NCBI GenBank assembly: GCA_020348985.1
Contig: CP070761.1
Coordinates: 2,300,310 to 2,364,309 of the forward strand
Direction of reading: 5' to 3'
Length of the DNA stretch: 64,000 nt
Source: Candidatus Thorarchaeota archaeon
GTDB taxonomy: Archaea > Asgardarchaeota > Thorarchaeia > Thorarchaeales > Thorarchaeaceae
A model generated the notes under the pieces. The model ran no database searches. It saw only the letters and a list, made by a program, of their open reading frames with translations, and was not told the DNA's origin. Below, piece after piece: positions 34,191 through 57,170 of this stretch. Position numbers and translations under genes: made by a program. Each line of letters starts with the position of its first letter. Within the stretch, counting starts at the first letter, position 1.

Positions 34191-34583
34191 GTGAATATCA
34201 AATCGCCTCGAGAGGTGAGTGTATTCTCTAGTGGGCAAAAGGCCCATACGGAATATGCTGAACCCGTTAACACTCCTCCTTTTGAGAGTCTGGCTTCATC
34301 GTTTTTGTCTCTGGCAGAACATAGGCTAAGTGACATGCAGAAGACTGTTCTTGTGATGAGTGCCAAGGTCCTTGAATATCATGACCTGACAGTGACCGCT
34401 CTTGCAGACCATATGAGCCGAAGAAGCCACGTGCCTTACAGCACACTGAAGTGGAACTTGAGGCTCCTGACGAAGATGGGTCTCTTGGTGGGTGGTGACA
34501 CCAAGAACAGAGGTAGGAAAGCAAGTCTGACAGAGGCTGCCAGATTGCTCATCCACCACTTGGAAGATCGAGCGATCTCCTAG
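34191..34583 (+). CDS. Winged-helix DNA-binding protein
   Basis: TVTALADHMS..VPYSTLKWNLRLLTKMGLL...ASLTEAA; start uncertain. Confidence 0.7.
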   Translation: MNIKSPREVSVFSSGQKAHTEYAEPVNTPPFESLASSFLSLAEHRLSDMQKTVLVMSAKVLEYHDLTVTALADHMSRRSHVPYSTLKWNLRLLTKMGLLVGGDTKNRGRKASLTEAARLLIHHLEDRAIS

Positions 34584-34621
34584 AGGTTTCACTCTGGGCA
34601 ATCCTCTCTTCTTCCTGTTTT

Positions 34622-34711
34622 TCTCTTCGGCAAGAGCCATTGGGTGCATCCCGCACTCGGGAGGAGCAATCGATTTTGCCCGTCCGTCATCGAAGCTTCT
34701 TGCCGAAGAGA
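34622..34711 (-). promoter_or_regulatory. Eukaryote-type SECIS-like element inside a 14-bp perfect outer stem
   Basis: Minus strand: ATGAC-GGACGGGCAA-AATCGA-TTGCTCCTCC-CGAG (34690-34656); inverted repeat 34622-34635/34698-34711. Confidence 0.75.
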
Positions 34712-35490
34712 TTCTTTCCTTTTGATAGGCCCTCCAAGACCTTCTCTTTACTTATGCCAGCAGACATCAGAAGCTCAACAGACACTTCTTCTCCGGATCC
34801 CAGATTTCCCAGATTCCATTGGAGCGCAGATGCTATGTCCTTTGGTCCCATCTTCAGGTTTCGTCTGAGGTCGCGACGGGCATCCTCAACTTTCAGCTTT
34901 GCAGGAGGCGAAATCTCCCAACTGTCTGGTTGTTTGATTGAACTCATTCCAACATACAGTGGATTGTCGTCCCAAATCATCATTGTACCAGAGTCTGGGT
35001 CATACTGACCGCGGTCATCCTTGTAGCTTCTTGGACCACCCAGGTCAAAGTCCATGAAGTTGTAGACCTTCATGTCTTCCACTTCCATATCTCCTATGTT
35101 TTTCGTCGTATGTCGAATGATTATTGTTGGCTTGTTATAACTCCAGAGAGCTATGCTGAATCTCAGCATCGGCTTAGAGAAGCCTACAGGAGTCAAGTCA
35201 AGATCGACCCTGAGTGTCTGACCTTTCATCTCGTTCCGTCGAATTCGAATGATTCTCTCCTCTGTCGACTGAACGTGATGAACGAGATCGTCAAGCACAA
35301 AGGAGGCCCAGAACCCGCTCCTGTAGCCCGCTGGATTGCGCAACAACAACCTGTCCAGTCCTTTGGGATCAATCAAGCTGAGTCGCTTCATATAGAAGCC
35401 CTTACGACCTCTTCCTCAAGAAACACAGTTCACTGCATATGTCATGTCAAGTCTTGGAGACCGTCTTCCAGATTCCAAGGTCTCATACAT
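34687..35490 (-). CDS. Candidate selenoprotein (267 aa, CxxU at residues 22-25) with a beta-sandwich-like body
   Basis: ATG 35490 with GGTGTGA SD and upstream TTTATA; MYETLESGRRSPRLDMTYAVNCVS-TGA(35418-35416)-GRGRKGFY is in frame with track ORF 34687-35391; 3' SECIS-like hairpin. Confidence 0.75.
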
Positions 35491-35667
35491 GATCGATCAC
35501 ACCAACTGCCTTCCTTGTCGGGATTCTCGGAGATATAAAGTGTACCAAGCAAGACCGCCTGCATGTGTGATGGCTTCGTGGCAATTCATAGTCGTACTCT
35601 CTTATCCTTGTCACAAACTTGATAAATATCACAAAGGACCGATGACGCGCTCAGGTGCGGACAAGCT

Positions 35668-36906
35668 ATGACTACTCTTACACTAGAGCAGCTACAGAAA
35701 TGGTACAGGAAGAGGCTTTCAAACAAGTCCAAGGATTTTACAAAGCTAGCTGAGAGAAGTTACAAGATAGTCGGGCGGACATTGAAAGATGTTGAGGAAG
35801 TCTCACAAGACCTGCTTGAAGCCAGTGATGATGATGACATCGAGCATCAAGGAATCGCCTCTCGATTTGCAATGAAGATTAGTGAAATCGTTGAAGGCTT
35901 TGACGTAGATAAGAAGGTCACCTACTCAAACACAGAGGAAATGCAGGAGGAGATTCAGAGATTCATTCAGGACCTTTGGGGCGCAGGAGCAAGATGGATT
36001 AAGCGGATGGATAAGAAGCACAAGAGCACAATCAAAGTTCTTGATTCCTACATGAAAGAGCTTATGCGCGAGATGAAGAAGATAGGCAAGATCCTGTATG
36101 AGTTTGCATGGATAAAGGACCTTGAACGTATTGACGGACGAATTACTACACTTCGTGATTTGACTTATGGCAAAGAGATCTTCGAGGAGCAAATCCGGCA
36201 GATCCGTCTAAAACTGGACGCTGCGGAGGCAGAATATGAGGCGGCAGAGAAAGCCTACGGTGACTTCAAAGACACATCAAACGTCGCTGAGATACTGAAT
36301 CTTGATCAAGAGTCCGAGCGAGTTGCATCTCTGTTGCGAATGCGGCTCAACACGCTCAGAAAAGCCGTGAAGAAATTCACTCAGCATGACACCGGGGTTC
36401 GGATTGGTCCCGCAGGCCATAGGGCTTTGGCAGATTATTTCGAAGACCCCTTCGAAGCCATCGTTGAGGAGCCTGATGGCACTCCCGGCCTTCTTGAGGG
36501 ACTCGGTGGAATGCAGAAGGCAATTGAAGGCGGACAATTGAAGCTGAAAGACCGGCTGGCCAGGAGAGCGATAGAGGAGATTGAAGAAATTCGAAATGGT
36601 GCCCTTTCGGAACTGCAAAGAACAGCAAAGGATATTGTCCAAAAGAGAAGAACCTACGCCGGATCAGAAGTCTACAAGCAAAGTGAAGAGATGACTTCTC
36701 GCCTTGATGAGGCGACGAAGAACCTAGAATATCATCGCAATGACCTTCTGAGAACAGGTGATGAGATTCAGCGTCAGATTGACAAGGTGGAGGAATTCCG
36801 AGAGAGAATAGAGTCTGAGATTCTCGAAGCGTTTGGCGAGAAGGTCATGATTCAGATTGATGACTTGGGTTTGGAGCCGCTCTTAGCCAAATGTACCGTT
36901 AGCTAG
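35668..36906 (+). CDS. Coiled-coil hypothetical protein
   Basis: Highly charged, helical and heptad-rich, 412 aa. Confidence 0.8.
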   Translation: MTTLTLEQLQKWYRKRLSNKSKDFTKLAERSYKIVGRTLKDVEEVSQDLLEASDDDDIEHQGIASRFAMKISEIVEGFDVDKKVTYSNTEEMQEEIQRFIQDLWGAGARWIKRMDKKHKSTIKVLDSYMKELMREMKKIGKILYEFAWIKDLERIDGRITTLRDLTYGKEIFEEQIRQIRLKLDAAEAEYEAAEKAYGDFKDTSNVAEILNLDQESERVASLLRMRLNTLRKAVKKFTQHDTGVRIGPAGHRALADYFEDPFEAIVEEPDGTPGLLEGLGGMQKAIEGGQLKLKDRLARRAIEEIEEIRNGALSELQRTAKDIVQKRRTYAGSEVYKQSEEMTSRLDEATKNLEYHRNDLLRTGDEIQRQIDKVEEFRERIESEILEAFGEKVMIQIDDLGLEPLLAKCTVS

Positions 36907-56109: not shown

Positions 56110-57170
56110 TGGCTAGGAATATTGTAGTAACCGGGGAGGCGGGCACAGGAAAGACCATGGTGGCCCTAGCGATTGCCATGGGACTTCGTGCCAAAGGAAA
56201 GAAAGTGGGTTACTTCAAGCCTGCTGGAGAGAAAAGCTTCAAACGTAGCAAGGACGGAATGTCGATTGACGAGGACGCTGCAATAATGAAAGATGTCCTC
56301 GGCTTGGAGGCAGATGCTGGGTCTATCTGCCCGATACCTCAGTCTCATACATCGTTTGATGAGCTCGCAAAGATTGGCACCGCTGACCTGAAGGCCAAGA
56401 TCCAGGAGTCTTATGATGAAGTATCCAGGGGCATGGATGTTGTTATCATCGAAGGTACAAGAGATCCCTGGCAGCTTCTACACGTGAATCTCTCAACCCC
56501 TCAGATAGCTCAGATGATGGAGGCCCGTGTTCTCTGCCTTGTCAATTTCACCGAGCTATCTGCGACCGACAATATCCTCCATCTGAAGAGTTTCTTCAAT
56601 CAGCACGGCATCGCCTCTATGGGCGTTGTGCTGACTATGGTACCCCCGATGCTCAAGAACACGATTCAGAATGAGATACCGAAGTTCATGGAGGAACATG
56701 AAATTGGCTTCTGCGGAGCGATATATCATCGAAGAGAGCTATTCAATCCCACAATACGAGATATCCTGCGTGCTCTGGATGGAGAAATGATAGTGGGGGA
56801 CGACAAGCTGGATCATCTTATCGATCAATTCCTAATTGGAAGCATGCTGCCGGAAAATGCGCTGAAGTGGTTCCGCAGAGCTAGGGACAGTGCTGTCATC
56901 ACAGGCGGCGACCGTGCTGATCTTTGTCTTGCTGCAATGGAAACAGATGTAGCTTTGTTGATTCTGACTGGGGGTCTAGGTCCTGACATCCGAACAATCT
57001 CTAGGGCAAAGGAGACTGGTGTTCCCATTCTGATGACGGCTCACGACACGTATGCAACGGGGCGAATTGTTGACGGACTCATAGGGACAGTTTCTGCAGA
57101 GAATAAGAGGAAGATAAAGACCATAGAGAAGATTGTTGGTGAAGCACTGGACTTTGCATGCCTCAGTTAG
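56109..57170 (+). CDS. BioD-like/DRTGG phosphotransacetylase-N family protein
   Basis: GEAGTGKT, GYFKP, ITGGDR, LILTGG. Confidence 0.88.
   Translation: MARNIVVTGEAGTGKTMVALAIAMGLRAKGKKVGYFKPAGEKSFKRSKDGMSIDEDAAIMKDVLGLEADAGSICPIPQSHTSFDELAKIGTADLKAKIQESYDEVSRGMDVVIIEGTRDPWQLLHVNLSTPQIAQMMEARVLCLVNFTELSATDNILHLKSFFNQHGIASMGVVLTMVPPMLKNTIQNEIPKFMEEHEIGFCGAIYHRRELFNPTIRDILRALDGEMIVGDDKLDHLIDQFLIGSMLPENALKWFRRARDSAVITGGDRADLCLAAMETDVALLILTGGLGPDIRTISRAKETGVPILMTAHDTYATGRIVDGLIGTVSAENKRKIKTIEKIVGEALDFACLS

What the first reader, a model, noticed from the sequence alone, without database searches (positions are those of the whole stretch)
34656..35540. Hidden candidate selenoprotein of an unfamiliar family: in-frame TGA in CxxU plus a eukaryote-type SECIS
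Seen: track ORF 34687-35391 (-) has no good SD. Exactly 33 codons upstream and in frame is ATG 35490, preceded by GGTGTGA and, further up, TTTATA. The extension reads MYETLESGRRSPRLDMTYAVN-C-V-S-TGA-GRGRKGFY, so the only interruption is a TGA (35418-35416) at the U position of a CxxU motif. At the 3' end lies AUGAC / 10-position helix GGACGGGCAA:UUGCUCCUCC (one C-C mismatch) / loop AAUCGA / CGAG. Established: CxxU is a classic selenoprotein redox motif; UGAN/NGAN core + ~10-12 bp helix + apical AA is the eukaryotic SECIS, and this SECIS type is known from Asgard archaea. Inference: a 267-aa selenoprotein whose body (beta-rich, DFDLGG...YDP...ALQW, resembling glycoside-hydrolase N-terminal beta-sandwiches) is not a thioredoxin fold or any selenoprotein family I recognise. 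Standard gene callers would truncate it.
Basis: partly seen in the sequence, partly recalled or inferred. Interest (0 to 1): 0.92.

Follow-up and report, generated by a model that had tools for sequence, protein, structure and literature searches.

The report
Hidden Asgard-wide selenoprotein family
A gene that databases cut short in Asgard archaea, the closest microbial relatives of eukaryotes, almost certainly reads an internal 'stop' codon as the selenium amino acid selenocysteine; this adds a widespread protein family, built on a sugar-enzyme-like scaffold, that the published selenoprotein lists I could read do not contain.

Summary
Observation confirmed. The gene runs 35490-34687 (-), 267 aa, with one TGA at codon 25 in CxxU. 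In 48 Thorarchaeia genomes examined, codon 25 is TGA in 47 and TGT (Cys) in one. The extension evolves like coding DNA, and the annotated Met occurs in only 2 of 29. The SECIS, whose AUGA is the stop codon, shows compensatory changes at all 8 helix pairs; as a lone hairpin it is at chance level. Orthologues in other Asgard families have TGA at the same site (26 loci) or CxxC without a SECIS (Ca. Lokiarchaeum ossiferum clade). The genome has SelD, EFSec and SepSecS; an assembly gap sits where relatives carry tRNA-Sec and PSTK. The predicted fold is a stand-alone GH15/GH94-type beta-sandwich, not thioredoxin, with the motif at a beta-hairpin tip. It is absent from the seven published Asgard families and the 119-family 2026 list. 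Selenoprotein: about 0.93. Function is inferred: most likely a cytoplasmic selenol/thiol redox protein (about 0.55), partner unknown. This scan flagged the Lokiarchaeia orthologues earlier on other DNA; the Thorarchaeia branch and the link between branches are shown here.

The parts
35534..35539 (-). TATA-box-like TTTATA, 44 nt upstream of the start codon
   Evidence: a similar motif sits about 45-55 nt upstream in most orthologous loci; function inferred
35497..35503 (-). SD-like GGTGTGA before the true start
   Evidence: GTGA/GTGG recurs at this spacing in many orthologues
34687..35490 (-). Full coding sequence, 267 aa, candidate selenoprotein
35392..35490 (-). 33-codon N-terminal extension missed by annotation; predicted to supply the first beta-hairpin of the sandwich
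   Evidence: differences by codon position 0.36/0.19/0.63, like the body (0.38/0.21/0.62), against 0.70/0.71/0.70 upstream; model of the full-length Cys homologue
35416..35427 (-). C22-x-x-U25 motif; TGA at 35418-35416
   Evidence: TGA in 47 of 48 Thorarchaeia genomes, TGT in one; CxxC in the L. ossiferum clade
34690..35391 (-). Body (annotated 234-aa ORF): GH15/GH94-type N-terminal beta-supersandwich plus linker helix, with a conserved acidic D147-x-D149-x-G-G...D159 patch
34656..34690 (-). SECIS core and upper helix; its AUGA is the gene's stop codon
   Evidence: 90.7% of cells paired, 8 of 8 pairs with compensatory change, covariation 0.95 against 0.31 in shuffles and 0.12-0.21 when slid
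34642..34652 (-). Second small hairpin on the 3' side of the SECIS core (5-nt loop containing GC)
   Evidence: 84.8% paired, 3 of 4 pairs compensatory; a similar hairpin follows the core in Loki-type orthologues; role unknown
34622..34711 (-). Outer (lower) stem pairing the last codons with the 3' UTR, 14 bp here
   Evidence: shorter equivalents are visible by eye in several orthologues; not scored for covariation

Best explanation
This is a 267-aa cytoplasmic selenoprotein of an undescribed family spread over Thorarchaeia, Lokiarchaeia and related Asgard families. Shown by comparison: translation starts at ATG 35490, UGA 25 is a sense codon that alternates with Cys, and a eukaryote-type SECIS overlapping the stop codon is conserved with it. 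From established knowledge: EFSec brings Sec-tRNA to UGA 25 under direction of the SECIS, while the terminal UGA, being part of the SECIS core, terminates, as described for Loki VhuU.1 (PMC4989117). Predicted: Sec sits on the turn of the first beta-hairpin of a stand-alone glycosidase-type beta-sandwich that has no catalytic barrel. Inferred (about 0.55): Sec is the reactive selenolate of a redox couple. It forms a selenenylsulfide with Cys22 (Thorarchaeia) or with a conserved C-terminal Cys (most Lokiarchaeia-type members, which lost the first Cys). The sandwich would be the binding surface that selects a protein or sugar-like target to reduce or to sense. The target is unknown. Confidence is about 0.93 for 'selenoprotein' and about 0.55 for the redox mechanism; the figure below weights identity over mechanism.
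For: TGA at codon 25 in 47 of 48 Thorarchaeia genomes and TGT in one. Coding-type substitution pattern on both sides, and frame 0 open in 28 of 28 while the other frames have stops in 21 and 25 of 28. Same-site TGA in 19 f9, 3 f30, 3 f16 loci and 1 f28 locus. CxxC in 35 full-length proteins of the L. ossiferum clade and in P0076/P0071. SECIS covariation; SECIS in all 19 f9 and the f16 loci, none convincing in the Cys loci. SelD with its own TGA and the same stop-overlapping SECIS, SepSecS and EFSec in this genome. TGA ends 322 of 800 long ORFs, so the general code is standard. The stand-alone gene was found only in families that carry SepSecS, where both were sampled. Two genomes (93% and 90% complete) in which SepSecS, EFSec and SelD were not found hold internally deleted copies. 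The truncated ORF folds with a disordered N-terminus (pLDDT 36-47); the full-length Cys homologue folds at pLDDT 91 with strands 3-13 and 18-30 around the motif. Sec has a partner Cys, at -3 or at the C-terminus, in nearly all members. No signal peptide or membrane segment (highest 19-residue hydropathy 0.81).
Against: No experimental evidence of translation or selenium content. tRNA-Sec and PSTK were not found in this assembly, although a 100-N gap lies exactly where relatives carry them. Four TGA-bearing loci (f30, f28) show no recognisable SECIS core near the stop. One Thorarchaeia member has no Cys at -3 (L027). The Cys-bearing clade and the TGT-bearing genome still have Sec genes, so those swaps are not explained by loss of Sec. 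Gene neighbours differ between clades and give no common pathway. The C-terminal Cys region is poorly modelled (pLDDT 53), so its closeness to Sec is not shown.
Confidence: 0.82

Rival explanations
1. Selenoprotein, but Sec/Cys is a metal ligand (Zn, Fe-S, Ni or a toxic metal) rather than a redox couple: the hairpin CxxU is a rubredoxin-like knuckle completed by the C-terminal Cys or by a second subunit.
For: CxxC on a beta-hairpin turn is the usual knuckle geometry (established knowledge). The L. ossiferum clade has three invariant Cys and P0076/P0071 have CxxCxxC. Two loci lie next to hydrogenase-maturation hypC/hypD-like genes, named by eye from motifs.
Against: Most f9 members replace the first Cys with an aliphatic or aromatic residue, and Thorarchaeia lack the C-terminal Cys, so no constant set of three or four ligands exists. 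No conserved His.
Confidence: 0.2
2. Selenoprotein acting in selenium handling or sensing: full-length protein is made only when Sec-tRNA is available, or it carries selenide as a selenopersulfide for the Sec pathway.
For: Distribution follows SepSecS and the gene decays where Sec genes were not found. In family f16 it lies two genes from SepSecS, next to a GcvH-like gene. Sec is close to the N-terminus, so failed read-through gives only a 24-aa peptide.
Against: An entire clade keeps an intact Cys version, which cannot report selenium through read-through. Decay on Sec loss is expected of any selenoprotein. The SepSecS link is seen in one family only.
Confidence: 0.13
3. Redox-controlled regulator of a Roadblock-small GTPase fusion protein.
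For: The gene lies directly downstream of, and on the same strand as, a Roadblock-GTPase gene in 24 loci of two Loki-type families.
Against: The link is absent in Thorarchaeia, f16 and f30, and no full-length orthologue of that fusion was found in this genome by tblastn. Synteny among kin is not independent evidence.
Confidence: 0.12
4. Two units: a 24-aa upstream peptide ending at a real UGA stop, with the body translated from a downstream start as annotated.
For: Public records start downstream; this window has a Met at 34.
Against: Met34 occurs in 2 of 29 orthologues. Codons 26-33 are conserved in frame. Natural Cys homologues are one continuous ORF. The truncated body lacks its first strands. 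A covarying SECIS would be unexplained.
Confidence: 0.03
5. Pseudogene, sequencing error, or a genome-wide code in which UGA means Trp or Gly.
For: One database entry has Trp at the site (P0058).
Against: That Trp is a gene caller's reading of TGA. TGA is a common stop in this genome. Independent contigs agree. The same codon is kept across five Asgard families under purifying selection.
Confidence: 0.01

Closest known systems
Asgard selenoprotein genes with lokiSECIS/eSECIS-like elements (SelD, HdrA, VhuD/FrhD, VhuU/FrhA, Prx-like, AhpF-N, DsbA-like; PMC4989117, PMC11227280)
   Same: In-frame UGA aligned to Cys in homologues; AUGA...GA core, 8-10-bp helix, apical adenines, often a type II mini-stem; SECIS overlapping the stop codon as in VhuU.1 and in this genome's selD.
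   Different: No Pfam, NCBIfam or PDB sequence match and not among the seven families. The other families have bacterial or methanogen counterparts; Sec forms of this one were seen only in Asgard genomes. A second conserved hairpin follows the core, which the passages I read in these papers do not describe.
N-terminal beta-supersandwich plus linker helix of GH15 glucoamylase/glucodextranase (1lf6, 1ulv) and GH94 phosphorylases (2cqs, 4zle, 8rf9)
   Same: Same predicted fold: Z 18-20, rmsd 2.7-3.0 A over 204-232 residues.
   Different: 8-13% identity, no catalytic (alpha/alpha)6 barrel, stand-alone, and carries Sec/Cys on the first hairpin.
Rdx/SELENOW-type and AhpD/CMD-type CxxU selenoproteins
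   Same: CxxU order of the motif, near the N-terminus.
   Different: Those use a thioredoxin-like or an all-helical fold; this is an all-beta sandwich, and the first Cys is dispensable in most f9 members.
Beta-sandwich domains of secreted or cell-surface proteins (haloarchaeal proteins P0065/P0067/P0077, T9SS-type and large Asgard surface proteins)
   Same: Closest sequence relatives outside the family (E 1e-5 to 1e-11); share the acidic D-x-D and G-D motifs; atlas models at TM 0.77-0.81.
   Different: They are exported or multi-domain and lack the Cys/Sec hairpin motif.

Membership tests
UGA-recoded selenoprotein (Asgard SECIS type) | In-frame UGA conserved among orthologues | tested here: met
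   47 of 48 Thorarchaeia genomes and 26 loci of four other families
UGA-recoded selenoprotein (Asgard SECIS type) | Protein-coding conservation on both sides of the UGA | tested here: met
   invariant P12, R13, D15, Y18 upstream and G31 downstream
UGA-recoded selenoprotein (Asgard SECIS type) | Cys at the aligned position in homologues | tested here: met
   TGT in G365; CxxC in the L. ossiferum clade and in P0076/P0071
UGA-recoded selenoprotein (Asgard SECIS type) | 3' SECIS with UGA/GA core, upper helix and apical adenines, conserved in structure | tested here: met
   not found in 4 TGA loci of f30/f28
UGA-recoded selenoprotein (Asgard SECIS type) | SelD, SepSecS and EFSec in the genome | tested here: met
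   all over the family cut-offs
UGA-recoded selenoprotein (Asgard SECIS type) | tRNA-Sec and PSTK in the genome | tested here: inconclusive
   Not found in G000 (86% complete). A 100-N gap at about C1:947615-947714 lies where both same-genus genomes carry tRNA-Sec and a kinase gene taken as PSTK from its position and P-loop
UGA-recoded selenoprotein (Asgard SECIS type) | UGA is otherwise a stop codon | tested here: met
   322 of 800 ORFs over 400 codons end in TGA
UGA-recoded selenoprotein (Asgard SECIS type) | Selenium shown in the protein | not testable with these tools
   needs mass spectrometry or 75Se labelling
The seven published Asgard selenoprotein families / 119 prokaryotic families | Sequence or profile match to a listed family | tested here: not met
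   no Pfam or NCBIfam hit for P0001, P0002, P0104, P0076 or the L030 protein; lists read
Thioredoxin-fold CxxU proteins (Rdx/SELENOW) | Thioredoxin alpha/beta fold with the motif before helix 1 | tested here: not met
   both models are all-beta sandwiches with C-terminal helices only
GH15/GH94/GH116 glycosidases and phosphorylases | N-terminal beta-supersandwich with linker helix | tested here: met
   Z 18-20
GH15/GH94/GH116 glycosidases and phosphorylases | Catalytic (alpha/alpha)6 barrel in the same chain | tested here: not met
   the protein ends after the linker helix; the only fusion seen is to a VWA domain (L068)
Aldose 1-epimerase (galactose mutarotase) | Same supersandwich with catalytic His and Glu | tested here: not met
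   fold Z only 11-13; no His is conserved in 80% of the family

The most novel reading that the evidence does not exclude
An Asgard-specific selenocysteine redox switch built on a recycled carbohydrate-enzyme domain, which in Lokiarchaeia passes redox or selenium status to a Roadblock-small GTPase module: a selenoprotein signalling component in the archaeal relatives of eukaryotes. The extra hairpin beside its SECIS core could be part of how UGA is recoded without SBP2.
Probability: 0.15. Interest if true: 0.92.

Novelty: new variant of a known kind. Interest (0 to 1): 0.76.

Why it matters
Published surveys count seven Asgard and eleven archaeal selenoprotein families, all shared with bacteria or methanogens, and the largest Asgard survey searched only with known families. 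This family is present in most Thorarchaeia and Lokiarchaeia genomes searched, so it would rank with the commonest Asgard selenoproteins, yet public records truncate it. It puts Sec on a fold not listed among the 119 prokaryotic families. It also gives a tractable test set: a natural Cys version in a cultivated organism (Ca. Lokiarchaeum ossiferum NEF87_004727), Sec/Cys swaps, and dozens of covarying SECIS elements. These bear on an open question, how Asgard archaea read a eukaryote-type SECIS without SBP2.

Tried and rejected
Rfam found no SECIS match. The search for related loci with the single protein found nothing, while whole-genome search did. I did not resend it there or to any other remote tool afterwards and used only natively encoded proteins for folding. 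Complex prediction of the L. ossiferum Cys homologue with its neighbouring Roadblock-GTPase gave no verdict. No RNA holder was listed among sequencing runs. A search for longer fused forms found none, which is weak evidence. No PDB sequence relative. A covariance model of this SECIS found only this locus in the genome at a significant E-value, so it is gene-specific and revealed no further selenoproteins. A regular-expression census of other selenoproteins was pure noise. The sigma-70 promoter scan does not apply to archaea. The idea that the terminal UGA is a second Sec was rejected: in L027 and in family f16 the SECIS UGA is out of frame, and f9 genes mostly end in TAA or TAG. The idea that the TGT swap in G365 follows loss of Sec was not supported, since G365 keeps a TGA-containing selD. 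The tree gives each family as one well-supported group but leaves the backbone open, so the order of Sec/Cys changes between families is not established. No paper in the searchable library names NEF87_004727 or an Asgard 'microintron'; most subscription papers are not covered. Searches were input slips.

Full report
Observation. The sequence matches the finding exactly. ATG 35490 is in frame with the annotated ATG 35391; the only interruption is TGA 35418-35416 at codon 25, in C-V-S-U. The terminal codon TGA 34689-34687 is itself the UGA of the AUGA core of the 3' hairpin. Folding adds a 14-bp outer stem between the last codons and the 3' UTR and a small second hairpin (z = -3.4). Alone the hairpin is not significant: a loose SECIS pattern gives 38 hits in this genome against about 35 expected. 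Contigs from independent studies show no difference at the TGA.

Organism and machinery. Database relatives are Candidatus Thorarchaeota proteins, annotated from downstream starts as hypothetical. The genome (86% complete) has SelD with an in-frame TGA, SepSecS and EFSec next to it. Its selD SECIS also uses the stop codon as AUGA. tRNA-Sec and PSTK were not found. Six family members have a clear tRNA-Sec; in both same-genus genomes it lies about 700 nt past SepSecS beside a P-loop kinase gene, and this assembly has a run of 100 N at that spot. TGA ends 322 of 800 long ORFs, so there is no general reassignment.

Conservation in Thorarchaeia. Of 48 genomes whose locus I read, 47 have TGA at codon 25 and one (G365) has TGT, giving CxxC. 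The first Cys is kept in all but one. The start codon sits at the same place (ATG 25, GTG 2, ATA 1 of 28); the annotated Met34 is Met in only 2 of 29. Codons 2-24 differ by codon position at 0.36/0.19/0.63, like the body (0.38/0.21/0.62) and unlike the upstream DNA (0.70/0.71/0.70); the frame is open in 28 of 28, the other frames are closed in 21 and 25. In 27 aligned 3' ends the upper helix is 90.7% paired with compensatory changes at all 8 pairs; covariation is 0.95 against 0.31 for shuffles and at most 0.21 for slid controls. The second hairpin is 84.8% paired. These counts include kin, but the slid controls keep relatedness.

The wider family. A profile search of 400 genomes of the phylum found strong matches in most genomes of f1 (this family; the tally of 75 of 85 includes some with only a weak large paralogue), f9 (124 of 135), f29 (11 of 14), f30 (3 of 4), f16 (5 of 5) and f28. 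All 19 f9 loci read have TGA at the homologous site, 13-15 codons after an ATA (rarely ATG or GTG) start behind a strong SD, and a near-perfect SECIS 11-32 nt after the stop, again followed by a small hairpin. f16 has C-S-K-U with the SECIS straddling the stop; f30 and f28 have CxxU, but I found no SECIS core there. Family f29, which includes Ca. Lokiarchaeum ossiferum NEF87_004727, has CxxC in all 35 full-length proteins and no convincing SECIS, although these genomes keep SepSecS. The stand-alone gene was found only in families with SepSecS where both were sampled; ten families without SepSecS showed no stand-alone copy, and four with SepSecS also showed none. G007 and G371, where SepSecS, EFSec and SelD were not found, carry copies with large deletions at the syntenic place. 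A tree recovers each family as one supported group with an unresolved backbone. Since Sec is the state in five families, an ancestral Sec with later Cys changes is the simplest reading; it is firm only for G365, which sits among Sec-bearing genus members.

Fold. The annotated 234-aa ORF folds (pLDDT 85) as a beta-supersandwich with one C-terminal helix and a disordered first 21 residues. The natural full-length Cys homologue folds at pLDDT 91, with strands 3-13 and 18-30 forming a hairpin that carries C11 and C14 at its end. So the extension supplies missing strands, which argues independently for read-through. Both models match the N-terminal sandwich plus linker of GH15 and GH94 enzymes (Z 18-20, rmsd about 3 A, 8-13% identity). 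The catalytic barrel is absent, and no His is conserved that could serve mutarotase chemistry. The nearest sequence relatives outside the family are domains of exported archaeal and bacterial proteins, which share the acidic D-x-D motif but not the Cys/Sec hairpin. That patch is therefore probably an inherited structural or cation site (inference).

How it most likely works. Recoding: EFSec with Sec-tRNA decodes UGA 25 under direction of the SECIS about 730 nt downstream, while the UGA inside the core terminates; Mariotti et al. describe this overlap and a minimum-distance rule for Loki genes (PMC4989117). Function (inferred): the protein has no signal or membrane segment, and the one feature constant across all clades is Sec or Cys on an exposed turn. 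A second Cys is almost always available, at -3 in Thorarchaeia, f16, f28 and f30, or at the extreme C-terminus in f9, f29 and f30. Most f9 members have lost the -3 Cys but keep the terminal one. That interchange suits a reactive selenolate with an alternative resolving Cys better than a fixed metal site. I put redox enzyme or switch at about 0.55, metal site at 0.2, selenium carrier or sensor at 0.13 and dedicated GTPase regulator at 0.12; the last overlaps with the first. Neighbours give no single pathway: Thorarchaeia have a divergent 412-aa coiled-coil gene (29 of 29) and a convergent HTH gene; f9 and f29 have a Roadblock-GTPase gene directly upstream (24 loci); f16 has a GcvH-like gene and SepSecS; two loci have hypC/hypD-like genes.

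Comparison with what is known. Huang et al. 2024 searched more than 400 Asgard genomes with known families and report seven (PMC11227280). The 2026 review lists 119 prokaryotic families, 11 of them archaeal, none on this fold (PMC13188914). Mariotti et al. looked for new families in the first Loki assembly and found five known ones. Pfam, NCBIfam and PDB sequence searches are blank. It works like the known SECIS-dependent Asgard selenoprotein genes, meets every testable criterion for that class except the inconclusive tRNA-Sec/PSTK check, and belongs to none of the listed families. The literature search covers open-access papers and preprints only.

Earlier notes of this scan. First readers and follow-up agents flagged the Lokiarchaeia-type orthologues in other genomes, and another note describes the outer stem here. 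I reached these points from my own calls (32, 49) before reading those notes and do not count them as support.

Verdict. A real and previously unlisted selenoprotein family, about 0.93 likely, on an unusual scaffold, with unknown target. Novelty: new variant of a known kind. Interest 0.76.

Noticed in passing
L059 (G235:C1, about 1600400) and L060 (G264:C43, about 89950), just after the Sec codon: Inserts of 29 and 32 nt, one base after the Sec TGA, shift the frame. They form a canonical bulge-helix-bulge (central CTTG/CAAG helix, two 3-nt bulges, paired exon flanks), and cleavage at the standard sites restores the family sequence. Candidate tRNA-type introns in an Asgard mRNA, right at a Sec codon.
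   Followed up: partly
L030, L051-L067 (family f9), 13-15 codons before the TGA: Most f9 genes appear to start at ATA behind a strong GGAGG, a second reason why annotation misses the N-terminus.
   Followed up: partly
L052, L077, L089 (family f30), 10-45 nt after the stop: CxxU genes with no recognisable SECIS core but a conserved hairpin whose 5-nt loop resembles the second hairpin of the Thorarchaeia element; the Cys-bearing G365 gene also keeps that hairpin.
   Followed up: partly
L069, L070 (family f16): Gene flanked by a NifB-like radical SAM gene (named by eye), a GcvH-like gene and a convergent SepSecS; the SECIS straddles the stop, whose TAA supplies the apical adenines.
   Followed up: partly
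L068 (G179:C22): The family domain is fused to a C-terminal von Willebrand A domain (about 706 aa open frame) and lies divergent from hypC/hypD-like genes.
   Followed up: no
window 35668-36906 (+): Divergent 412-aa coiled-coil protein, 54-69% identical and syntenic in 29 of 29 Thorarchaeia loci, with no family assignment (weak Vps28 hit, E 0.012).
   Followed up: no
window 34326-34649 (-): The 107-aa ORF that starts inside the second hairpin is probably spurious; it is antisense to the conserved HTH gene 34191-34583 (+).
   Followed up: partly
G000:C1:2858066-2858497 (L081): A distant copy of the same sandwich domain sits inside an open frame of about 1,490 aa; most Thorarchaeia genomes give such a second weak match.
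   Followed up: no
G000:C1:1758645-1758775 (-), 56192-56289 (-), about 477400 (-), about 2556000 (-): Several tRNA genes with apparent introns that ARAGORN missed; it lists only 21 tRNAs in this genome.
   Followed up: no
L117 (G371:C111) and L119 (G007:C8): Decayed copies: G371 has lost about the first 195 codons, including the Sec codon, but keeps the SECIS; G007 has lost about codons 80-217.
   Followed up: yes
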